Below are positions 230-10,961 of a DNA stretch of 11,257 bases, one piece after another. The stretch lies in the UHGV virus genome UHGV-0341487; one strand, given 5' to 3'. The notes under the pieces are model-generated. The model was not told the DNA's origin, did not search any database, and saw only the letters and a list, made by a program, of their open reading frames with translations. The translations under genes were made by a program, and so were the position numbers. How positions within the stretch are numbered: position 1 is the stretch's first letter; each line of letters begins with the position of its first letter. Source of the DNA: a virus.

Positions 230-589
230 TCAATCTCCTTTGGTACCAATGTTTACAGCCTGGCAAGCCTCTTTGAGCACCCAGTCAACAGCGTCTTTCC
301 ATGCTCCGGTTTCGACTGGCGGATTCTCACGCTTTACCTGTTCATAGAAACGCACTGCTTTAATCAATCCTTCTGGTGTCAGTGGCACAGGCGGGACAGT
401 GAATAAGGCCTGAATCTCATAGCTCGGCCTGTCGTTGCAATCCTCTTTTGTCGGGACATATTTCCAGTCACCAACCCACTGCTTCCCCTGAAAGTCTGTA
501 ACGCCTTTTTTCACGTAGCGATATCGCCATGCCACTGGTTTTGCCTGCCCTGCCTTTTCATGCCCTTCCTGATAATTAATCTCGCTCAT
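230..589 (-). CDS. Hypothetical phage protein (119 aa)
   Basis: ORF-track ORF; ATG at 589..587 overlaps stop of upstream small ORF (ATGA overlap). No recognisable motif. Confidence 0.55.
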   Translation of the reverse strand: MSEINYQEGHEKAGQAKPVAWRYRYVKKGVTDFQGKQWVGDWKYVPTKEDCNDRPSYEIQALFTVPPVPLTPEGLIKAVRFYEQVKRENPPVETGAWKDAVDWVLKEACQAVNIGTKGD

Positions 590-1388: not shown

Positions 1389-1925
1389 TCACTCTCCTTT
1401 GATGCGAATGCCAGCGACGCGTGGCACATTAACTTCCACAATGCGCACAGTTGGTTTGTACATCTCAATTGCTGTCAGCCAGTCAGCTCCTGTCATGCGC
1501 TTTTCTGCATCGCCATTAGTCCACTGAACCGGTACACCAATAGCCTTCATCGCGATTTCTATTTCCCCGGCAATGGCGCTTTTTCCGCAACCAGTAAAAC
1601 CAGATACAACGACAAGAACTTCGCCCTTGGCCGGTTTTATTTCCCGCGCTTCCAGCTCTTTAACGCGCTCCTCGAGTTCGTAGACTCTGCATTGTTCTTT
1701 ATCATCAATCAGATATAACCCAAGACATTCGCTTTCTACCCAGCCACCGAAATCATGATCGTAACGCTCACATGAAAACTCACCGTCGCTGTCCTTTGTT
1801 GGGATGGTGTAGCTATCTAATGGGCCACCATACGTCGGCACATTTCCCAATGTCGGATGCTCAATCCACATGAAAAATGCACGTCCGGTTATAGGGCAAA
1901 TATCTGGTCGCCATTGGTTACTCAC
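1389..1925 (-). CDS. Walker A (P-loop) motif protein, about 178 aa
   Basis: ORF-track ORF 1389..1952 trimmed to GTG at 1925..1923, 6 nt after AGGAGG (1937..1932); GTGAGTAA overlaps the upstream stop. Strand-loop-helix VLVVVSGFTGCGKSAIAGEIEIAM contains GxxGxGKS, encoded at 1578..1601. Confidence 0.6.
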   Translation of the reverse strand: MSNQWRPDICPITGRAFFMWIEHPTLGNVPTYGGPLDSYTIPTKDSDGEFSCERYDHDFGGWVESECLGLYLIDDKEQCRVYELEERVKELEAREIKPAKGEVLVVVSGFTGCGKSAIAGEIEIAMKAIGVPVQWTNGDAEKRMTGADWLTAIEMYKPTVRIVEVNVPRVAGIRIKGE

Positions 1926-2217
1926 TGTTTGCCTCCTGAAAAATAACTGCATGCCCCAGCTTCTCCGCCAGCGCCAGTTCTGCCTTAGCGCCTGCTGACC
2001 GCTGCCAGCCTTTCAGCATGTAAATCGCATCAACACAACGAATCATTGCCATGCAAATATCCATGTAGTGTGGCTGTGTCAGCCCGTCCGGAAGTACTGC
2101 CGGGTTTAAGACTGTATGCCCTTCCCGTTTCAGTTCCTCTTCCGCATCGTGGAACGCCTCACGGTTGAAATTTTTATACCCGGTCATCGGACCAGCGATA
2201 TAAATCCTCACCCTCAC
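1918..2217 (-). CDS. DUF4406-like / nucleoside 2-deoxyribosyltransferase-fold protein (99 aa)
   Basis: N-terminal RIYIAGPMTG followed by NP and a GW..S.GA..E pattern, characteristic of the DUF4406 / nucleoside deoxyribosyltransferase-like fold (recalled, not searched). GTG start at 2217 overlaps upstream stop (GTGA); AGGAGG 7 nt upstream. Confidence 0.6.
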   Translation of the reverse strand: MRVRIYIAGPMTGYKNFNREAFHDAEEELKREGHTVLNPAVLPDGLTQPHYMDICMAMIRCVDAIYMLKGWQRSAGAKAELALAEKLGHAVIFQEANSE

Positions 2218-2636
2218 GCCATCACCTCCTGAAAATTACCCTGATAGAACGCCAGCACACGCTGCATAGCTTCGCTCTTCCGGCACTCGCGACAGATTAT
2301 GTTCTGACGCCTGTCGTAGCGGCGTATTTCTCCGTCTGGTAATGACCAGATAAGGTCCGGATCAACCGCAGATGGTTTCTTCAGCTTTGCCCTTGAGAGC
2401 TTTTTACGGGTATTTTGCCAATCCTTACGCGCCTGTTCAGACGGGAATAACCCGTAACCAGAGTTGTATACATCGCCACTGGCAACCAGCTCTCTGGCCA
2501 GAACGCTCATCAGATATCTTGTTGCCCCAGTTTTAGCTTCCAGTTGTCGTAACGTCTCGCGTCCACTCTGGCGTACGAGTTCAAGAACCTGCCCTTTAAT
2601 TTTTTCCCGCTCTTCTTGTGTAAAAACTTTTGCCAC
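2214..2636 (-). CDS. Hypothetical protein (140 aa), possibly winged-helix-like N-terminus
   Basis: ORF-track ORF; GTG start at 2636 preceded by AGGAGG (2646..2641). Sits where lambdoid phages usually carry a helicase loader, but is too short and shows no ATPase motif. Confidence 0.5.
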   Translation of the reverse strand: MAKVFTQEEREKIKGQVLELVRQSGRETLRQLEAKTGATRYLMSVLARELVASGDVYNSGYGLFPSEQARKDWQNTRKKLSRAKLKKPSAVDPDLIWSLPDGEIRRYDRRQNIICRECRKSEAMQRVLAFYQGNFQEVMA

Positions 2637-2676: not shown

Positions 2677-3747
2677 TTACCCCCTGAAGCCCGGCGGAAT
2701 TTCGTTATCCGGTTCAGAAATATGATTCACACAACGCTGGTTGTTCGTGCTGCTTACCGGGAGCAACCAGGGGTTCTCAAAATTCCGGTCCGGTCCAAAA
2801 AACGTCGTCGCTCGCTGAACAAATTCCGTTCCCGTTTTCCCGGTAGCCGCCAAGTATCTTGCGTAACGCCTCACGCCATCCAGCATGGCCTCTGGTGGCA
2901 CCCCCTCGCGTAATCTGGCCTTCCAGGCACTGAAAGCGGATTTCTTCGGGTTTGCTCCGGCACGCAACGGGTACTCCCGCCAGACCTGTTCGAACACATC
3001 CGGATAATCCACTCGTCCCACAGACTGCCCGGTGCTTTCCGGGACTACCCGATCGGCTTCCCGCTGAATGGCGGAATCGGCTTCAGGCTGCTGCAGTTGG
3101 TGTGATTGCTCCGGCCTTGCGGTCATCACCTGCTGCACAGCGCCCGAATCGGCTTTCAGCGCATACGCTGAATCGGCTTCCGGTGTCGTGCCTGCTGGCT
3201 GACCAGGATTGACGGTCTGAACATCCCCTGCCTGGTTCGTGGCGTTTTTTACGCCATGGACCATAGTGTTTTGATCTTCTTGATCTGTATCTTTATCTGT
3301 ATCTTTATCTGTCGTGACTCGTCGTGACATGTGCGTGACATTTCGTGACGCGCCGTGACAATCGCCATTTTGTTCCCGCTTTCTTTCCCTCTCTCGCTGC
3401 GCCCTCTTGCGCTCTGCAGGAGATTTTGCGGTTTGCGAAATATTGCCGTTGTCCTCTTTAAGCACCTGGCGTTTTTCCCATCCAGTGATTAAATCACCAT
3501 CAAGTACCCGCCCCTGCATCGTCTGCAAAATTGAATCAATTACCTCTTCTGTCACGTCGAGCGCACTTGCCAAATCTTCTGTCGTGACATCAATGTGACC
3601 TCGCGTGACATTTCGTGACGCGCTCACCAGGAGGTGGATATACACTGCCATCACTGTTGCAATTGGCTGCCCTGACACCCTGGCAATTGTTCGCCACTTA
3701 GGGTCATTTGGCATGTCATGCCATAATCTGAGCCAGGCGTTAGCCAT
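2677..3747 (-). CDS. Phage replication initiator (lambda O-like functional analogue) with origin iterons inside its coding sequence
   Basis: ORF-track ORF 2677..3753; start moved to ATG at 3747..3745, 5 nt after GAGGTG. Position directly downstream of the cro-like/YdaT-like genes. Two clusters of CGTGAC iterons lie inside the gene and are mirrored in the protein as RNVTRGHIDVTT and RNVTHMSRRVTTDKDTDKDTD. Confidence 0.7.
   Translation of the reverse strand: MANAWLRLWHDMPNDPKWRTIARVSGQPIATVMAVYIHLLVSASRNVTRGHIDVTTEDLASALDVTEEVIDSILQTMQGRVLDGDLITGWEKRQVLKEDNGNISQTAKSPAERKRAQRERERKREQNGDCHGASRNVTHMSRRVTTDKDTDKDTDQEDQNTMVHGVKNATNQAGDVQTVNPGQPAGTTPEADSAYALKADSGAVQQVMTARPEQSHQLQQPEADSAIQREADRVVPESTGQSVGRVDYPDVFEQVWREYPLRAGANPKKSAFSAWKARLREGVPPEAMLDGVRRYARYLAATGKTGTEFVQRATTFFGPDRNFENPWLLPVSSTNNQRCVNHISEPDNEIPPGFRG
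3283..3359. repeat. Origin-like repeat block: two tandem 12-bp ATCTGTATCTTT units plus a third diverged unit (3307-3318) that overlaps the first of five CGTGAC iterons at about 10-bp spacing
   Basis: Seen in sequence: atctgtatcttt at 3283-3294 and 3295-3306; cgtgac at 3313, 3323, 3334, 3344, 3354. Helical-turn spacing puts the sites on one face of the DNA. Confidence 0.65.
3583..3623. repeat. Second iteron cluster (CGTGAC/TGTGAC, four copies at 10-11 bp spacing), with a 20-bp exact copy of an iteron pair from the first cluster
   Basis: cgtgacatttcgtgacgcgc occurs at 3334-3353 and again at 3604-3623; additional copies at 3583 and 3594; an inverted gtcacg at 3551. Confidence 0.6.
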
Positions 3748-3818
3748 ACTCACCTCTTTTGATACCGAATCTTTTTACTCACAAATTGCCGGAAGTGATC
3801 CGGTATGAATATTGCGAG

Positions 3819-5310: not shown

Positions 5311-5489
5311 TTGCATACCAACCCACCCCGCCCCATAGAACGCCGGGCAATACTTCGAGTTACCAGGCAGTGGTCAGGGGTTAAGTAGCCAGCCCGAGGC
5401 GTAAGAACATGACGGCAGGGTTCAACTTTAATAACTATGCAGCAGGTTTTTGTTCCGCTACCCCGGCGTTAAGGGGAAATGAGGTCAAC

Positions 5490-5645
5490 ATGGATACTAT
5501 CGATCTTGGCAACAACGAATCTCTGGTGTACGGCGTGTTTCCCAACCAGGACGGCACATTCACCGCGATGACGTATACCAAAAGCAAAACGTTTAAAACC
5601 GAAAATGGTGCCCGTCGCTGGCTGGAAAGAAACTCAGGTGAGTGA
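5490..5645 (+). CDS. ydfA: YdfA-like small protein (51 aa)
   Basis: ORF-track ORF 5409..5645 trimmed to ATG at 5490, 5 nt after GAGGT; 51 aa equals the YdfA length and it is the first gene of a ydfABC-dicF-dicB-ydfD-ordered operon. Symbol assigned by synteny and size from memory. The upstream ATG at 5409 is an alternative start. Confidence 0.5.
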   Translation: MDTIDLGNNESLVYGVFPNQDGTFTAMTYTKSKTFKTENGARRWLERNSGE

Positions 5646-5646
5646 T

Positions 5647-5775
5647 ATGGATTTCGACACAATCATGAAAAAGGCTTACGAAGAATACTTCGAAGGCCTT
5701 ACCGAAGGCGAAGAAGCTCTCAGCTTCAGTGAGTTTAAACAGGCGCTTTCCAGCTCGGCAAAATCTAACGGCTGA
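5647..5775 (+). CDS. ydfB: YdfB-like small protein (42 aa), not in ORF track
   Basis: Manual translation MDFDTIMKKAYEEYFEGLTEGEEALSFSEFKQALSSSAKSNG; ATG 1 nt after the upstream stop with AGGTGAG SD; size and position match ydfB. Confidence 0.5.
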   Translation: MDFDTIMKKAYEEYFEGLTEGEEALSFSEFKQALSSSAKSNG

Positions 5776-5804
5776 TAAGCGAAGCAGCACCGCGAGGAAT
5801 CAGT

Positions 5805-6023
5805 ATGCAGAAACGAGAACCCGTCATCATCGCGCCAGACTATACCGATGATGAACTTTATGAGTGGATGCGCCAGAAAATTAATGCAGCGCAGGATCTG
5901 AAATGGGCCAATGAAGCCAGGGCTAAGCAGGCTGAAAATCTGTCCGCTCTGGAGCAGGATATCACCAGGCTGGAAAAAGCAGCGGCATTAAGCATTGCCA
6001 GAATGATTACATACCAGCGTTAA
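5805..6023 (+). CDS. ydfC: YdfC-like protein (72 aa)
   Basis: ORF-track ORF with GAGGAA SD; 72 aa and position match ydfC of the dicB operon. Confidence 0.6.
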   Translation: MQKREPVIIAPDYTDDELYEWMRQKINAAQDLKWANEARAKQAENLSALEQDITRLEKAAALSIARMITYQR

Positions 6024-6363: not shown

Positions 6364-6421
6364 TTTCTGGTGACGTTTGGCGGTATCAGTTTTACTCCGT
6401 GACTGCTCTGCCGCCCTTTTT
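6364..6421 (+). ncRNA. dicF: DicF small regulatory RNA (ftsZ-targeting antisense sRNA) with its own intrinsic terminator
   Basis: Sequence tttctggtgacgtttggcggtatcagttttactccgtgactgctctgccgcccttttt matches my recollection of E. coli DicF; ends in GC stem plus T run; located between ydfC and dicB exactly as in the Qin dicB operon. Confidence 0.8.
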
Positions 6422-7060: not shown

Positions 7061-9532
7061 ATGAGTAAAGTCTTTATTTGCGCCGCTATTCCTGACGAAC
7101 TGGCAACAAGGGAAGAAGGCGCTGTGGCTGTAGCCACAGCCATTGAAGCTGGCGACGAACGCCGTGCTCGAGCAAAATTTCACTGGCAGTTCCTGGAACA
7201 TTATCCGGCTGCTCAGGACTGCGCTTATAAATTTATTGTCTGCGAGGATAAACCTGGCATACCCCGCCCTGCCCTCGATTCATGGGATGCTGAATATATG
7301 CAGGAAAACCGCTGGGATGAGGAGTCTGCTTCTTTTGTCCCGGTTGAGACTGAATCCGATCCGATGAACGTCACTTTTGACAAGCTGGCCCCTGAAGTAC
7401 AGAACGCTGTCATGGTTAAGTTCGACACATGTGAAAACATCACCGTTGATATGGTTATTAGCGCACAGGAATTGTTGCAGGAAGACATGGCAACATTCGA
7501 CGGACATATCGTTGAAGCGTTGATGAAAATGCCAGAAGTTAACGCCATGTATCCGGAGCTTAAGTTGCACGCCATTGGGTGGGTTAAGCATAAATGTATT
7601 CCTGGTGCTAAATGGCCCGAAATTCAGGCAGAGATGCGCATCTGGAAAAAACGTCGCGAAGGTGAACGCAAGGAAACCGGAAAATACACGTCTGTTGTTG
7701 ATCTCGCCCGCGCCAGAGCCAATCAACAGTACACTGAAAATTCAACAGGAAAAATCAGCCCGGTCATTGCTGCCATTCATCGCGAATACAAGCAGACATG
7801 GAAAACACTGGATGACGAACTGGCCTACGCTCTCTGGCCTGGTGATGTGGATGCCGGAAACATTGACGGCAGCATCCATCGCTGGGCAAAAAAAGAAGTT
7901 ATCGACAACGACCGCGAAGACTGGAAGCGTATCTCGGCATCAATGCGCAAACAGCCTGATGCCCTTCGCTACGACCGCCAAACTATTTTTGGCCTTGTCC
8001 GTGAGCGTCCGATCGACATTCACAAAGATCCCGTAGCACTGAACAAATATATCTGCGAATACCTGACGACAAAGGGCGTGTTTGAGAATGAAGAAACAGA
8101 CCTGGGCACTGTTGATGTTCTCCAGTCATCAGAAACACAAACTGATGCAGTGGAAACTGAGGTATCTGATATCCCAAAAAATGAAACCGCGCCGGAAGCT
8201 GAACCATCTGTAGAGCGTGAGGGGCCGTTCTATTTCCTCTTCGCAGATAAGGACGGAGAAAAATACGGTCGCGCAAACAAACTTTCTGGTCTGGATAAGG
8301 CACTGGCTGCTGGCGCCACTGAAATCACAAAAGAAGAATATTTTGCCCGAAAAAATGGCACATACACGGGCTTACCGCAAAATGTAGATACCGCTGAAGA
8401 TTCAGAACAACCAGAGCCGATAAAAGTTACCGCTGACGAAGTAAACAAAATTATGCAGGCAGCCAATATCAGCCAGCCTGACGCCGATAAGTTGCTTGCT
8501 GCATCACGTGGTGAATTTGTTGAAGGGATTAGTGACCCGAATGATCCGAAATGGGTTAAGGGGATCCAGACCCGCGATTCTGTGAACCAGAACCAGCATG
8601 AATCGGAACGGAACTACCAAAAAGCGGAACAAAACAGCACAAATGCGTTACAAAACGAGCCAGAAACGAAACAGCCTGAACCAGTGGCGCAACAGGAAGT
8701 GGAAAAAGTCTGCACCGCCTGCGGTCAGACCGGCGGCGGCAACTGCCCTGATTGTGGCGCGGTGATGGGCGACGCAACATACCAAGAAACATTCGATGAA
8801 GAGTATCAGGTTGAAGTTCAGGAAGATGATCCGGAGGAAATGGAAGGCGCTGAACATCCACACAAGGAGAACACTGGCGGCAATCAGCATCACAATAGCG
8901 ATAATGAAACTGGCGAGACGGCAGATCACCCAATTAAGGTGAACGGTCATCACGAAATCACATCCACCAGCAGGACGTGTGACCATCTAATGATCGACCT
9001 TGAAACCATGGGAAAAAATCCTGATGCCCCGATCATCTCAATAGGTGCAATATTTTTCGATCCGCAAACCGGAGATATGGGACCGGAATTTAGTAAGACT
9101 ATCGATCTGGAAACTGCTGGCGGAGTCATTGATCGGGACACCATTAAATGGTGGCTTAAGCAATCACGCGAAGCGCAATCTGCCATTATGACCGATGAAA
9201 TCCCGTTAGATGATGCACTGTTACAATTGCGGGAATTTATCGACGAAAACTCCGGTGAATTTTTTGTTCAGGTCTGGGGAAATGGAGCCAACTTCGACAA
9301 CACGATTTTGCGCCGTTCATACGAACGGCAGGGGATCCCCTGCCCGTGGCGTTACTACAACGATCGCGATGTACGCACAATCGTTGAGCTGGGGAAAGCC
9401 ATAGACTTCGATGCCAGAACGGCTATTCCATTCGAAGGTGAGCGCCATAATGCACTTGATGACGCTCGTTACCAGGCAAAATACGTTTCAGCTATCTGGC
9501 AAAAACTGATCCCGAGTCAGGCTGATTTTTAA
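7061..9532 (+). CDS. Large multidomain phage protein (823 aa): unrecognised N-terminal domain, acidic/Gln-rich linker with CxxC-x7-CxxC zinc ribbon, C-terminal DEDDh-type 3'-5' exonuclease domain
   Basis: Long ORF with GAGG SD. C-terminal about 180 aa (nt 8987-9529) carry MIDLETMG (Exo I, D-x-E), GNGANFDNT (Exo II) and HNALDDARYQAKY (Exo III, His plus Asp). Zinc ribbon CTACGQTGGGNCPDCG near nt 8709-8762. Occupies the slot between dicB/ydfD and xis/int. Confidence 0.85.
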   Translation: MSKVFICAAIPDELATREEGAVAVATAIEAGDERRARAKFHWQFLEHYPAAQDCAYKFIVCEDKPGIPRPALDSWDAEYMQENRWDEESASFVPVETESDPMNVTFDKLAPEVQNAVMVKFDTCENITVDMVISAQELLQEDMATFDGHIVEALMKMPEVNAMYPELKLHAIGWVKHKCIPGAKWPEIQAEMRIWKKRREGERKETGKYTSVVDLARARANQQYTENSTGKISPVIAAIHREYKQTWKTLDDELAYALWPGDVDAGNIDGSIHRWAKKEVIDNDREDWKRISASMRKQPDALRYDRQTIFGLVRERPIDIHKDPVALNKYICEYLTTKGVFENEETDLGTVDVLQSSETQTDAVETEVSDIPKNETAPEAEPSVEREGPFYFLFADKDGEKYGRANKLSGLDKALAAGATEITKEEYFARKNGTYTGLPQNVDTAEDSEQPEPIKVTADEVNKIMQAANISQPDADKLLAASRGEFVEGISDPNDPKWVKGIQTRDSVNQNQHESERNYQKAEQNSTNALQNEPETKQPEPVAQQEVEKVCTACGQTGGGNCPDCGAVMGDATYQETFDEEYQVEVQEDDPEEMEGAEHPHKENTGGNQHHNSDNETGETADHPIKVNGHHEITSTSRTCDHLMIDLETMGKNPDAPIISIGAIFFDPQTGDMGPEFSKTIDLETAGGVIDRDTIKWWLKQSREAQSAIMTDEIPLDDALLQLREFIDENSGEFFVQVWGNGANFDNTILRRSYERQGIPCPWRYYNDRDVRTIVELGKAIDFDARTAIPFEGERHNALDDARYQAKYVSAIWQKLIPSQADF

Positions 9533-9590: not shown

Positions 9591-9794
9591 ATGAGCAGCT
9601 TATTTTTAACCGAAGATGAATTGCTAATATTAACGGGCTGCAAATATGCAAGCCACCAGCGAAAATGGTTAATGGAAAACGGGCTTCCGTTCTATACCAA
9701 TCGTAGTGGCAAACCGATTGTCAGCCGGGATCTATTTACCTGCAATAAAACTTTACCACCACGCGAGGTAGAGCCGAATTTTGGTGCGATCTGA
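9591..9794 (+). CDS. xis: Excisionase-like protein (DUF4224-type small DNA-binding protein)
   Basis: 67-aa ORF immediately upstream of int; its stop overlaps the int start (ATGA at 9792-9796); LTEDELLILTGCKYASHQRKWL resembles the small proteins found upstream of lambdoid integrases (from memory). Confidence 0.7.
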   Translation: MSSLFLTEDELLILTGCKYASHQRKWLMENGLPFYTNRSGKPIVSRDLFTCNKTLPPREVEPNFGAI

Positions 9795-10819
9795 TGGGAA
9801 GACGAAGGAAAAATCCTGAACACGAAAAATTACCTCCAAATGTATACCCAAATAAATATAGTTATGTATGGAAACCAACATCCAGAGAATCTGTCACACT
9901 AACCGCCATCAAGGATGGTTTAGCTGCTTTATGGAAAAAGTATGAGGAAACTGTAAATAATCGCGATCGTGCAATGACATTCGGTCGCTTGTGGGAAAAA
10001 TTCCTCGCCAGCGCCTATTACAGTGACCTTAGTCCAAGAACACAAAAAGATTATCTGCAACATCAAAAAAAGTTGCTTGCCGTATTCGGTAAGGTACCAG
10101 CGGATTCCATAAAACCAGAACACATCCGTCGATACATGGACAAAAGAGGGGAGCAGAGTAAAACGCAAGCCAACCATGAAAAAAGCAGTATGTCCCGTGT
10201 TTACAGTTGGGGGTATGAGCGAGGGTACGTGAAGGCTAACCCATGTGCAGGTGTAAGTAAATTCAAGGCCAAAAACCGCGAACGATATGTAACCGACAAA
10301 GAATACCAGGCAGTATTAAGCGTTGCACCTCTTCCTGTTTTTATCGCAATGGAAATTGCCTATCTGTGTGCAGCGAGGGTTTCCGATGTGTTATCGCTGA
10401 AATGGGAACAGATTGGAAACGACGGGATATTCATCCAGCAAGGGAAAACCGGAAAAAAACAGATAAAAGCATGGAGTCCACGATTACAGGCAGCGATCGA
10501 AAAAGCAAAACAGTTGCCAAAATCTGCCTATGTGATCAGCAATCAATACGGCAACCGATATATGTACAAAGGCTTTAACGAAATGTGGGTAGATGCAAGA
10601 AATCGTGCTGGAAAAATTTCAGGTATTTTAACCGACTTCACCTTTCATGATCTGAAGGCGAAAGGAATTTCAGACTATGAAGGAAGCAGCCGGGATAAGC
10701 AACTTTTCTCTGGTCACAAAACCGAAGGGCAAGTGCTAATCTATGACAGGAAGGTTAAAGTTTCACCAACACTTGATGTCCCGTTACCTGAAAATATTCC
10801 AAGAAAATATTCCAAGTAA
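9794..10819 (+). CDS. int: Tyrosine site-specific integrase, lambda Int family
   Basis: N-terminal MGRRRKNPEHEKLPPNVY parallels lambda Int MGRRRSHERRDLPPNLY; catalytic-region residues are alignable (AARVSDV Arg, QQGKTG Lys, FHDLK, LFSGH, LIYDRK Tyr). Adjacent to a tRNA gene. Confidence 0.9.
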   Translation: MGRRRKNPEHEKLPPNVYPNKYSYVWKPTSRESVTLTAIKDGLAALWKKYEETVNNRDRAMTFGRLWEKFLASAYYSDLSPRTQKDYLQHQKKLLAVFGKVPADSIKPEHIRRYMDKRGEQSKTQANHEKSSMSRVYSWGYERGYVKANPCAGVSKFKAKNRERYVTDKEYQAVLSVAPLPVFIAMEIAYLCAARVSDVLSLKWEQIGNDGIFIQQGKTGKKQIKAWSPRLQAAIEKAKQLPKSAYVISNQYGNRYMYKGFNEMWVDARNRAGKISGILTDFTFHDLKAKGISDYEGSSRDKQLFSGHKTEGQVLIYDRKVKVSPTLDVPLPENIPRKYSK

Positions 10820-10871: not shown

Positions 10872-10961
10872 TGGCGGAGAGAGGGGGATTTGAACCCCCG
10901 GTGGAGTTGCCCCCACTCCGGTTTTCGAGACCGGTCCGTTCAGCCGCTCCGGCATCTCTCC
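10872..10961 (-). tRNA. serU: tRNA-Ser (anticodon CGA), class II tRNA with long variable arm and encoded CCA
   Basis: Reverse complement reads GGAGAGATGCCGGAGCGGCTGAACGGACCGGTCTCGAAAACCGGAGTGGGGGCAACTCCACCGGGGGTTCAAATCCCCCTCTCTCCGCCA: 7-bp acceptor stem GGAGAGA/TCTCTCC, anticodon loop CUCGAAA, TpsiC arm GGGGGTTCAAATCCCCC. Confidence 0.93.

What the first reader, a model, noticed from the sequence alone, without database searches (positions are those of the whole stretch)
1389..2217. Translationally coupled DUF4406-like (deoxyribosyltransferase-fold) gene and a small Walker-A protein in the nin-like region
The 99-aa protein has the YIAGPMTG signature of nucleoside 2-deoxyribosyltransferase-like / DUF4406 folds, which bind or cleave nucleotides. 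The next gene starts with a GTG overlapping its stop and encodes a canonical strand-P-loop-helix (VLVVVSGFTGCGKS) placed unusually at about residue 110 of 178, with only about 50 residues after it and no clear Walker B. The two genes may form a two-component nucleotide-modifying or nucleotide-sensing module; such folds recur in phage defence and counter-defence biology, but the function here is unknown.
Basis: partly seen in the sequence, partly recalled or inferred. Interest (0 to 1): 0.55.

Follow-up and report, generated by a model that had tools for sequence, protein, structure and literature searches.

The report
Ea22-like phage gene with mini P-loop
The two overlapping genes are real, but the "small Walker-A protein" is a short member of the mosaic phage Ea22 family whose swappable end module is an uncharacterised 72-residue P-loop mini-domain, and it sits beside the DUF4406 gene through prophage gene shuffling, not as part of a dedicated two-gene system.

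Summary
Both ORFs exist as described. They lie in the early-right operon of a Qin/Rac-type lambdoid prophage of E. coli. Gene 1 (1918-2217, minus) is a clear DUF4406 protein (Pfam E=2e-37) that keeps the Ser-x-Gly-Ala-x-x-Glu site of the deoxyribosyltransferase superfamily. Gene 2 (1389-1925, minus) starts at a GTG preceded by AGGAGG-N6 and overlaps the upstream stop. It is a short-form Ead/Ea22-like protein with four parts: a beta-rich central domain, a short helix ending in ELEARE, a 72-aa P-loop cassette, and the family's RVAGIRIKGE tail. The cassette is a conserved mobile domain. It occurs in 443 representative proteins from Alpha-, Beta- and Gammaproteobacteria phages and prophages. Its Walker A motif (GxTGxGKS) and a Walker-B-like VRIVExN motif are nearly invariant, and dN/dS is about 0.05. 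No Pfam, NCBIfam or PDB entry covers it, and no solved fold matches it significantly. Short DNA linkers conserved between genes bracket the cassette, which explains how it is swapped. The pairing with DUF4406 is not obligate. In complete E. coli genomes, 1220 carry the DUF4406 gene, 355 carry the cassette and only 55 carry the pair. Two rare fusion proteins exist. The two-component-module reading is therefore weakly supported. The cassette itself is a modestly interesting new C-terminal variant of the Ea22 family.

The parts
2214..2636 (-). Upstream gene: DUF977 / Ren-like exclusion protein (140 aa). Its stop overlaps the GTG start of DUF4406 (GTGA).
   Evidence: Pfam PF06163 E=1e-30; phrog_142; PGAP annotation in the identical genome.
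1918..2217 (-). Gene A: DUF4406 protein, 99 aa, nucleoside 2-deoxyribosyltransferase-like superfamily.
   Evidence: PF14359 E=2.2e-37; phrog_355 E=1e-47; profile vs PDB gives top hits NDT 2a0k and CMP N-glycosidase 4jen.
2179..2202 (-). YIAGPMTG motif (A residues 6-13). Y6, A8, G9, P10 and T12 are invariant in 101 homologues; M11 and G13 in 100.
1978..1998 (-). S74-x-G76-A77-x-x-E80 motif of A. E80 aligns with the catalytic Glu region of NDT and MilB.
   Evidence: Invariant in 101 sequences; HMMER alignments to 2a0k and 4jen. The catalytic role is inferred from knowledge of the NDT family.
1932..1937 (-). AGGAGG Shine-Dalgarno sequence for gene B, embedded in the last codons of A, 6 nt upstream of the GTG.
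   Evidence: Sequence read. The same CAGGAGG serves whichever gene follows DUF4406 in L096 and L098.
1389..1925 (-). Gene B: short-form Ead/Ea22-like mosaic protein, 178 aa, GTG start overlapping the stop of A (GTGAGTAA).
   Evidence: 95-96% identical over its full length to the C-terminal 178 aa of 269-310-aa PF13935-bearing Ead/Ea22-like proteins P0003 and P0004.
1704..1925 (-). Central domain of B (residues 1-74; NQWRPDICPITG...LYLIDD). It is beta-rich and has invariant Cys/His. It is shared with Ea22-like proteins of Stx2 phages, P7 upf88.3, Ss-VASD, and Aeromonas phages at 49-51% identity.
   Evidence: (five strands, pLDDT 57-76 by 10-residue block).
1641..1703 (-). Helical/coiled-coil linker (residues 75-95) ending in L-E-A-R-E. 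Its last 15 nt (1641-1655, CTGGAAGCGCGGGAA) are a DNA linker conserved between genes with unrelated cassettes.
   Evidence: AF2 helix 75-94; three-gene DNA alignment.
1422..1625 (-). P-loop mini-domain cassette core (residues 101-168; GEVLVVVSGFTGCGKSAIAGEIEI...YKPTVRIVEVNVP).
   Evidence: 443 representative proteins at E<=1e-3; per-column conservation; dN/dS 0.048; AF2 pLDDT 82.8; no Pfam, NCBIfam or PDB family.
1578..1601 (-). Walker A motif GFTGCGKS (B residues 109-116).
   Evidence: Rare exceptions are P0004 (G to A) and P0161 (K to E).
1428..1448 (-). Walker-B-like motif V-R-I-V-E-V-N (B residues 160-166); E164 is invariant.
   Evidence: It is retained as VRIVEKN in the 41%-identical jumbo phage FLC8 protein, where other motifs are lost.
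1389..1421 (-). Conserved Ea22-family tail R-V-A-G-I-R-I-K-G-E plus stop. It acts as the 3' recombination linker, and its AAGGAG (1394-1399) is the Shine-Dalgarno sequence for the next gene's GTG (1385-1387).
   Evidence: Several O157 and other genomes in the spread listing match only this 34-nt tail at 100%. The +GE motif is described in PMC7093339.
1031..1387 (-). Downstream gene (118 aa, phrog_1621, zinc-ribbon-like), starting 1 nt after the stop of B.

Best explanation
The interval holds two real genes that are tightly packed in the early-right operon of a Qin/Rac-type lambdoid prophage. They are not a dedicated pair. Gene A is an ordinary DUF4406 protein. It occupies a fixed slot after the DUF977/Ren-like gene and probably acts alone as an N-glycosidase or transferase on a nucleotide. 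This role is inferred from the conserved S-x-G-A-x-x-E site shared with NDT, Rcl and MilB enzymes. Gene B is a short form of the mosaic Ead/Ea22-like family. It has a beta-rich central domain, a short helix ending in ELEARE, a 72-aa cassette and the family tail RVAGIRIKGE. The cassette is an autonomous, mobile and strongly constrained mini-domain. It has a strand, a Walker A loop, a helix and a later VRIVExN Walker-B-like strand. It is one of several alternative C-terminal modules and is exchanged by homologous recombination at two short conserved DNA linkers. The inferred mechanism is as follows. The Ea22-type helical scaffold oligomerises (lambda Ea22 is a tetramer with dimeric C-terminal domains). 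This brings two or more half-size P-loop units together to bind a phosphate-bearing ligand, most likely an NTP with Mg2+. Ligand binding then modulates whatever early host or phage target the protein acts on. Lysis-lysogeny bias or counter-defence are the plausible arenas. The anatomy, family membership, mobility, conservation and lack of obligate linkage are shown. Ligand binding, oligomerisation and the biological role are inferred.
For: Family and architecture: full-length 95-96% identity to the C-terminal part of PF13935-bearing Ead/Ea22-like proteins, and the same N-terminus combined with three different C-terminal cassettes. The K-G-E terminus matches the published Ea22 hallmark (PMC7093339). 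Published Ea22 proteins are mosaic with variable C-terminal domains. Cassette as a domain: 215 clusters, mostly 125-146-aa Ea22-like proteins. 443 representatives place it at the C-terminal or N-terminal end of 126-510-aa proteins. 45 of 72 positions are conserved at 90% or more, including GxTGxGKS and VRIVExN. dN/dS is 0.048. It occurs in Enterobacterales, Beta- and Alphaproteobacteria. It occurs in cultured phages phiV10, D6, JL22, BcepC6B and jumbo FLC8. Swapping mechanism: conserved linkers flank unrelated cassettes. No obligate pairing: counts of 1220, 355, 81 and 55 among 5426 E. coli genomes; 9 of 93 cassette loci have a DUF4406 nearby; 5 of 77 DUF4406 loci have the cassette downstream. 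DUF4406 site.
Confidence: 0.7

Rival explanations
1. One reading: DUF4406 and the P-loop protein are a translationally coupled two-component module. One partner binds or hydrolyses NTP and the other cleaves or transfers a nucleobase, jointly modifying or sensing nucleotides for defence or counter-defence.
For: The GTGAGTAA overlap with AGGAGG-N6. Two multidomain proteins from Comamonadaceae-type prophages carry both a DUF4406 domain and the cassette (P0309, P0376). At least four different juxtapositions occur in Enterobacterales: the window type, L024 and L054 with a canonical Ea22-like gene, and L005 two genes away.
Against: The pair is present in only 55 of 1220 DUF4406-bearing and 355 cassette-bearing E. 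coli genomes, and every listed copy (top 25) is 100% identical, pointing to one prophage lineage. 84 of 93 cassette loci lack DUF4406 within 4-5 kb. 72 of 77 DUF4406 loci lack the cassette within 1.5 kb downstream. About 100 DUF4406-containing mosaic proteins lack the cassette. All three gene junctions examined in this operon overlap or abut with an embedded ribosome site. Both modules belong to the same shuffling pool, so occasional adjacency and fusion are expected.
Confidence: 0.12
2. Gene B is a non-functional remnant: the 3' two-thirds of an Ea22-like gene left behind when recombination placed DUF4406 where the N-terminal PF13935 region used to be.
For: B lacks the PF13935 N-terminal and coiled-coil part present in its closest full-length relatives. 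Homology to full-length genes begins exactly at the start of B. PGAP calls it a hypothetical protein and is inconsistent about its start.
Against: The ORF is intact with a near-consensus ribosome site. The same short N-terminus (M/V-SNQWRPD) heads clusters with three different cassettes, one cluster having 240 member sequences. Other short forms exist in Salmonella (P0011). The cassette is under strong purifying selection across all its carriers, not measured separately for the short form.
Confidence: 0.07
3. The GxxGxGKS segment is not a nucleotide-binding P-loop. The cassette is instead a compact protein-, DNA-, RNA- or polyphosphate-binding domain, or a purely structural dimerisation domain, whose loop only resembles Walker A.
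For: The domain has about 72 residues and at most three strands. There is no significant sequence or fold match to any NTPase. The whole domain is uniformly conserved, so the loop is not specially constrained among close relatives. Rare natural variants carry G to A or K to E in the loop.
Against: The context is the classic hydrophobic strand, then GxxGxGK[ST], then a helix. In the most divergent homologues (41% identity), the Walker A and VRIVExN elements are what survive. All weak database hits are to P-loop families: APS kinase, FtsY, dethiobiotin synthetase, GPN GTPase, UvrA and PilT.
Confidence: 0.25

Closest known systems
Ead/Ea22-like family (Pfam PF13935 / IPR025153): lambda Ea22 and the Stx-phage variants V1, V2 (DUF551) and V3
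   Same: Mosaic build with a helical/coiled-coil segment followed by an interchangeable C-terminal module. The terminal K-G-E motif is present. Closest homologues are annotated as this family and carry PF13935. It is an early, non-essential accessory gene of lambdoid phages.
   Different: B lacks the PF13935 N-terminal and coiled-coil region and gives no PF13935 hit. It has an extra beta-rich central domain. It lies in the early-right operon after the replication genes rather than between exo and xis. Its C-terminal module is a P-loop mini-domain not among the described variants, and it is near-neutral (pI 8.1) rather than acidic.
P-loop NTPases (weakest-but-best matches: APS kinase PF01583, dethiobiotin synthetase 3fgn, GPN-loop GTPase 5hci)
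   Same: A hydrophobic strand, GxxGxGK[ST] and a helix. A later hydrophobic strand ends in an invariant acidic residue (VRIVE). An N/D-G-D motif after the second strand recalls the DGD of APS kinase; this last point comes from my own recollection of the APS-kinase motif and is only a lead.
DUF4406 (PF14359) within the nucleoside 2-deoxyribosyltransferase / Rcl / MilB superfamily
   Same: Gene A scores far above the Pfam threshold. The N-terminal Y-x-A-G-P loop and the S-x-G-A-x-x-E segment align with NDT and CMP N-glycosidase across the full length.
   Different: It has only 99 residues and its function is unknown. Matches to solved NDT and MilB proteins are sub-significant (E=0.07-0.14). No substrate is known.
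Polyvalent / multidomain conflict proteins of phages and plasmids (Iyer et al. 2017, PMC5512222)
   Same: In Comamonadaceae- and Pseudomonas-type prophages the DUF4406 domain, the cassette, Lar-like zinc ribbons and Ead_Ea22 segments are strung together with Ala/Pro-rich linkers in 200-550-aa proteins.
   Different: That paper mentions none of these modules. In E. coli the modules are mostly separate small genes.

Membership tests
DUF4406 (PF14359) | Pfam HMM score above the gathering threshold over the full domain | tested here: met
   127.8 bits against a cutoff of 22; residues 4-93 match profile positions 2-91 of 91.
Nucleoside 2-deoxyribosyltransferase-like superfamily | Significant sequence or profile similarity to NDT, Rcl or MilB | tested here: inconclusive
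   PF05014 E=0.084. The profile search against PDB gives NDT 2a0k at E=0.07, MilB 4jen at E=0.14 and 6qai at E=1.4. These alignments are full-length but sub-significant. phrog_355, annotated as NDT, matches at E=1e-47.
Nucleoside 2-deoxyribosyltransferase-like superfamily | Conserved catalytic Glu in the (D/S)-x-G-x-x-x-E segment | tested here: met
   S74, G76, A77 and E80 are invariant in 101 homologues. E80 aligns with the Glu of the ...FEV... segment of 2a0k and the ...IEI... segment of 4jen. Catalysis itself was not tested.
Ead/Ea22-like family | PF13935 (Ead_Ea22) HMM match | tested here: not met
   There is no PF13935 hit on B at E<=1. B corresponds to the part of full-length members downstream of that region.
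Ead/Ea22-like family | Full-length homology to bona fide members, and the shared mosaic blocks | tested here: met
   95-96% identity with 100% query coverage to P0003 and P0004, which carry PF13935. The ELEARE and RVAGIRIKGE linkers are shared at the DNA level.
Ead/Ea22-like family | C-terminal basic-Gly-Glu (+GE) motif | tested here: met
   B ends in ...IRIKGE. The motif is described in PMC7093339.
Ead/Ea22-like family | Tetramer with dimeric C-terminal domain; pro-lysogenic phenotype | not testable with these tools
   Known only for lambda and P27 proteins. No multimer prediction or experiment was available.
P-loop NTPase | Walker A GxxxxGK[ST] between a beta-strand and a helix, conserved in homologues | tested here: met
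   GFTGCGKS at residues 109-116. G, T, G, K and S are kept in 137/138 representatives. The strand-helix context appears in the AF2 models.
P-loop NTPase | Walker B (hhhh[DE]) on a strand adjacent to the P-loop strand | tested here: inconclusive
   VRIVE (160-164) is present with E invariant in 138/138 and is retained in distant homologues. Spatial adjacency could not be verified because the cassette model has no DSSP sheet.
P-loop NTPase | Three-layer alpha/beta fold with a five-stranded (or larger) core, detectable by fold or profile comparison | tested here: not met
Known anti-phage defence systems (PADLOC) | Match to any PADLOC-DB model | tested here: not met
   No hits at E<=1 for A, B or the flanking genes.

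The most novel reading that the evidence does not exclude
The cassette is a natural, autonomous P-loop domain of about 72 residues, roughly half the size of a typical NTPase domain (about 150 residues or more, from general knowledge). It becomes competent only when paired or quadrupled on a coiled-coil stalk. Phages of many families across Proteobacteria deploy it early in infection to bind a nucleotide-type ligand, for example as an ATP/GTP-sensing switch for the lysis-lysogeny decision or as a sponge for nucleotide immune signals. On this reading, the recurrent neighbourhood and rare fusion with the DUF4406 N-glycosidase-like domain would reflect a shared nucleotide substrate.
Probability: 0.18. 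Interest if true: 0.7.

Novelty: new variant of a known kind. Interest (0 to 1): 0.4.

Why it matters
Ea22 proteins are among the few lambda early genes that still lack a biochemical function. Published work describes acidic C-terminal domains with no recognisable motif. A widespread C-terminal variant with intact Walker A/B-like motifs offers a concrete, testable handle on the family: nucleotide binding assays and point mutants. A natural 72-residue P-loop unit would also interest researchers studying minimal and ancestral P-loop proteins. The conserved DNA linkers that double as ribosome-binding sites give a simple explanation for the unexplained K-G-E terminus of Ea22 proteins and for how cassettes are exchanged. 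For annotation, the result shows that a suggestive overlapping pair of nucleotide-related genes in a lambdoid variable region can be a by-product of mosaic recombination.

Tried and rejected
1. AF2 of the whole of B with 77 close homologues gave pLDDT 56.5 and an unusable cassette region. The cassette alone with a more diverse alignment gave pLDDT 82.8 but no DSSP strands.
3. Single-sequence and profile searches of PDB sequences returned only local Walker-A hits for B and the cassette. The single-sequence search found nothing for A.
4. NCBIfam gave only sub-threshold P-loop hits for B and nothing for A. PADLOC gave nothing.
5. I suspected that PF26207, seen in the precomputed annotations of some cassette proteins, was the cassette. 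I rejected this because P0378 and P0471 carry PF26207 without the cassette, and many cassette proteins lack it.
6. I considered programmed frameshifting between A and B because P0032 is an A-B fusion. I rejected this because the fusion is explained by loss of one G in CAGGAGG, B lies in the +1 frame relative to A with no slippery site at the junction, and the cluster has only 2 members on a 1.7-kb contig.
7. I considered APS kinase as the specific ancestor, based on Pfam E=0.05, NCBIfam E=0.009 and a DGD-like motif. The profile search against PDB did not support it, so it is kept only as a lead.
8. The literature offers little. Only 3 papers mention DUF4406, none functionally. The Ea22 papers and the polyvalent-protein paper do not mention a P-loop variant.
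Full report
**Context.** The window is an integrated lambdoid prophage of the Qin/Rac type. It is 100% identical over the finding to E. coli strain 4/4 and many other human isolates, including an O25b:H4-ST131 strain. An integrase and tRNA-Ser lie at the right end. The dicB/DicF/ydfABC immunity-side genes and a cI-like repressor lie in the middle. A minus-strand early-right operon runs in this order: cro, a cII/YdaT-like gene, an O-like replication initiator (2677-3753), a DUF977/Ren-like gene (2214-2636), then the two genes of the finding, followed by a string of small accessory genes.

**Observation check.**
- ORF A (1918-2217, minus, 99 aa) matches Pfam DUF4406 at E=2.2e-37. It gives weak hits to DUF1937 and Nuc_deoxyrib_tr, and matches PHROG 355, annotated as nucleoside 2-deoxyribosyltransferase, at E=1e-47.
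- ORF B begins at GTG 1925-1923, inside GTGAGTAA where TAA is the stop of A. AGGAGG lies 6 nt upstream.
- The longer 187-aa ORF that PGAP calls in strain 4/4 starts at an ATG formed by the conserved Gly-His-Ala codons of DUF4406. In a relative, PGAP itself uses the GTG. Several protein clusters also start at M-SNQWRPD.
- Walker A GFTGCGKS lies at residues 109-116.

**What gene B is.** A search of 5.8 billion proteins returned 3510 relatives, and those that carry a source name are called ead/Ea22-like family protein. Alignment shows that B equals the C-terminal 178 residues of 269-310-aa proteins (P0003, P0004; 95-96% identical) whose additional N-terminal part carries PF13935. The alignment resolves B into blocks:
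- a conserved central domain (residues 1-74, NQWRPDICPITG...LYLIDD);
- a helix ending in ELEARE;
- a variable segment;
- a conserved tail, R-[VA]-A-G-I-R-I-K-G-E.

In other proteins with the same central domain, two or three unrelated shorter sequences replace the P-loop in the variable segment (P0017, P0018, P0020, P0038). This matches the published picture of Ea22. It is a mosaic protein with a variable N-terminus, a coiled coil and unrelated C-terminal domains, always ending in basic-Gly-Glu. Lambda Ea22 is pro-lysogenic and tetrameric with a dimeric C-terminal domain, and its biochemical function is unknown (PMC7093339, PMC10834534). None of the described variants (lambda, V1, V2/DUF551, V3) has a P-loop.

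**The cassette as a domain.**
- *Distribution among proteins.* Searching with residues 96-178 alone found 215 clusters. Most are 125-146-aa Ea22-like proteins in which a variable N-terminal segment and a short coiled coil lead straight into the cassette.
- *Exhaustive search.* An HMMER scan of 1.84 billion representatives found 443 proteins at E<=1e-3, of which 350 are at E<=1e-10. They range from 126 to 510 aa. The cassette usually sits at the extreme C-terminus and sometimes near the N-terminus, and it remains 63-70% identical to the query while the flanks are unrelated.
- *Conservation.* Across 138 representatives, 45 of 72 positions are conserved at 90% or more. The consensus is G-E-V-L-V-x-V-S-G-[FL]-T-G-[SC]-G-K-S-A-I-A-G-E-I-E-I, then A-[LI]-G, W, E-K, T-x-A-D-W, A-x-E-x-Y-K-P-x-V-R-I-V-E-x-N-x-P. 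Among 133 enterobacterial clusters only two break Walker A: P0004 (G to A) and P0161 (K to E).
- *Selection.* Forty-seven distinct DNA alleles give a median dN/dS of 0.048.
- *Hosts and phages.* Hosts include Escherichia, Salmonella, Citrobacter, Klebsiella, Enterobacter, Cronobacter, Serratia, Methyloversatilis, Pandoraea, Sulfuriferula, Methylobacterium, Mesorhizobium and Acetobacteraceae. Cultured phages with the cassette include phiV10, the P1-like D6 and JL22, Yersinia fHe-Yen8-01 and Burkholderia BcepC6B (gp37). It also occurs at 41% identity inside a 534-aa protein of jumbo Burkholderia/Ralstonia phages. In that distant copy only GRTGVGKS and VRIVEKN remain recognisable. This is the best evidence that these two elements are the functional core.
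- *Genomic context.* In Pandoraea and Mesorhizobium the cassette lies in prophage early regions, next to a Sak4-like annealase, a methyltransferase, a Lar-like gene and an integrase.

**Is it an NTPase?** No Pfam, NCBIfam or PADLOC model covers the cassette. All weak hits are to P-loop families: AAA_16 and APS kinase at E about 0.05, and NCBIfam OppF (E=0.003) and adenylyl-sulfate kinase (E=0.009). PDB sequence searches gave only local Walker-A similarity, both with the single sequence and with a profile.

AF2 on the whole protein was poor, with pLDDT 56.5. It showed a five-strand central domain, a helix at 75-94 and a low-confidence strand-helix-strand-helix-strand cassette. The cassette alone with a more diverse alignment reached pLDDT 82.8 and pTM 0.70, with helices directly after the GKS and at residues 51-61, but no DSSP-assigned sheet.

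I conclude that the cassette has the sequence grammar of a P-loop but only about half the size of an NTPase domain. Membership of the P-loop NTPase fold is therefore not established. It may work like one if it oligomerises, as the architecture of the Ea22 family suggests. The cassette is near-neutral (pI 8.1), unlike the acidic C-terminal domains described for other Ea22 variants.

**How the mosaic arises.** A DNA alignment of B with two other genes that follow DUF4406 in other E. coli prophages shows three short conserved blocks separating unrelated sequence:
- the end of DUF4406, including CAGGAGG;
- CTGGAAGCGCGGGAA, which encodes L-E-A-R-E;
- ACGCGTCGCTGGCATTCGCATCAAAGGAGAG, which encodes the tail.

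In the spread listing, several O157:H7 and other genomes match only the last 34 nt of B, at 100%. These blocks are the likely crossover points for cassette exchange. The first and third blocks also supply the Shine-Dalgarno sequence for the next gene: AGGAGG-N6-GTG for B, and AAGGAG-N6-GTG for the gene at 1031-1387. Tight packing with embedded ribosome sites holds at all three junctions examined here, so it does not mark A and B as a special pair.

**Testing the pair.** Counts among 5426 complete E. coli genomes:

| Feature | Genomes |
|---|---|
| DUF4406 gene | 1220 |
| Complete P-loop cassette | 355 |
| DUF4406 plus central-domain junction | 81 |
| Whole pair | 55 |

Every listed copy of the whole pair (the top 25) is 100% identical, which points to one prophage lineage.

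Of 93 cassette loci from IMG/VR and GTDB genomes, 9 have a DUF4406 within about 1 kb upstream. Five of these have the window arrangement. L024 and L054 have DUF4406 followed by a canonical PF13935-plus-cassette gene. In L005 two genes separate them. L069 has a DUF4406 fragment.

Of 77 IMG/VR loci with close DUF4406 relatives:
- 5 have the cassette downstream;
- 5 have the central domain with another cassette;
- 21 have some other Ea22-tail gene;
- 46 have none.

The gene after DUF4406 can be an Ea22-like protein, a DUF4752 protein or something else.

In Comamonadaceae- and Pseudomonas-type prophages, DUF4406 is itself a module inside 200-550-aa mosaic proteins, joined to Lar-like zinc ribbons, Ead_Ea22 segments and others. 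Only two of about 110 such proteins (P0309, P0376) also carry the cassette.

These data fit two modules drawn from one shuffling pool that occasionally land together. They do not fit an obligate partnership. I put the dedicated two-component model at about 0.12.

**Gene A.** Across 101 homologues from E. coli and Betaproteobacteria, Y6, A8, G9, P10, T12, N18, F22, N38-P39-A40, Y51, L68, W71, S74, G76, A77 and E80 are invariant, and M11 and G13 differ in only one sequence. A profile search of PDB puts a nucleoside 2-deoxyribosyltransferase (2a0k, E=0.07) and the CMP N-glycosidase MilB (4jen, E=0.14) on top. Both alignments are full-length, and the conserved Glu of the target lies opposite E80. 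From what is known of NDT, Rcl and MilB enzymes, that Glu is the catalytic residue. A is therefore probably an active N-glycosidase or transferase acting on a nucleotide. The substrate is unknown, and only three papers mention the family, none functionally.

**Verdict.**
- Gene B is a new C-terminal variant of the known Ea22 mosaic family.
- Its cassette is an uncharacterised, widespread and strongly constrained mini P-loop-like domain. It merits a binding assay and a multimer model.
- The DUF4406 gene is an ordinary member of a known family of unknown function.

Noticed in passing
window 1389-1421 (minus) and 1385-1399: The unexplained '+GE' terminus of Ea22 proteins (PMC7093339) is encoded here by ...ATCAAAGGAGAGTGA. 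The AAGGAG is a Shine-Dalgarno sequence 6 nt before the GTG of the next gene. The 31-nt tail is conserved at the DNA level between genes with unrelated cassettes. DNA-level roles as a ribosome site and a recombination linker may therefore explain the motif.
   Followed up: partly
window 6365-6416 (+): DicF antisense sRNA (Rfam RF00039, 76.7 bits) lies upstream of dicB, as in the Qin prophage. The ydfA/B/C-like ORFs lie at 5409-6023.
   Followed up: no
window 10872-10961 (-) and 9794-10819 (+): tRNA-Ser(CGA) lies next to an intact 341-aa tyrosine integrase ORF and is probably the attachment site. In the otherwise identical prophage of E. coli 4/4, PGAP annotates the integrase as frameshifted.
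   Followed up: no
window 230-589 (-): A 119-aa ORF begins MSEINYQ..., the typical N-terminus of Ead/Ea22-like proteins, then diverges. This suggests a further mosaic junction of the same family in the same operon. The matching phage record also annotates a second 'Ea22 protein' further downstream (L001 2789-3229).
   Followed up: no
P0013 (Salmonella enterica, 241 aa): The NQWRPD-type central domain is tandemly duplicated within one Ea22-like protein.
   Followed up: no
P0032 (249 aa; Logan contig of 1.7 kb): An in-frame fusion of DUF4406 with the short Ea22-like gene, caused by loss of one G in CAGGAGG at the junction. It is probably a sequencing error or a mutation rather than a programmed event.
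   Followed up: partly
P0305-P0363, P0376-P0483 (Comamonas, Acidovorax, Variovorax, Pseudomonas prophages): These are large 'beads-on-a-string' proteins in which DUF4406, Lar-like zinc ribbons, Ead_Ea22 segments, PF26207 and the P-loop cassette are joined by Ala/Pro-rich linkers. This polyvalent-protein-like class is not covered in PMC5512222.
   Followed up: partly
window 7061-9532 (+): An 823-aa protein annotated by PGAP as an exonuclease. It has a long acidic, low-complexity middle region, a CxxC...CxxC segment and, to my eye, a C-terminal DEDD-type exonuclease region. It was not examined with tools.
   Followed up: no
E. coli plasmids (H73, H77, H78, H81; 93-369 kb) and phages D6, JL22, P7: The cassette occurs in D6 and JL22, and the central domain in P7 (upf88.3); all three are phages of about 90-100 kb that I take to be P1-like. 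The cassette also matches E. coli plasmids of 93-369 kb. So these modules are not confined to lambdoid prophages.
   Followed up: no
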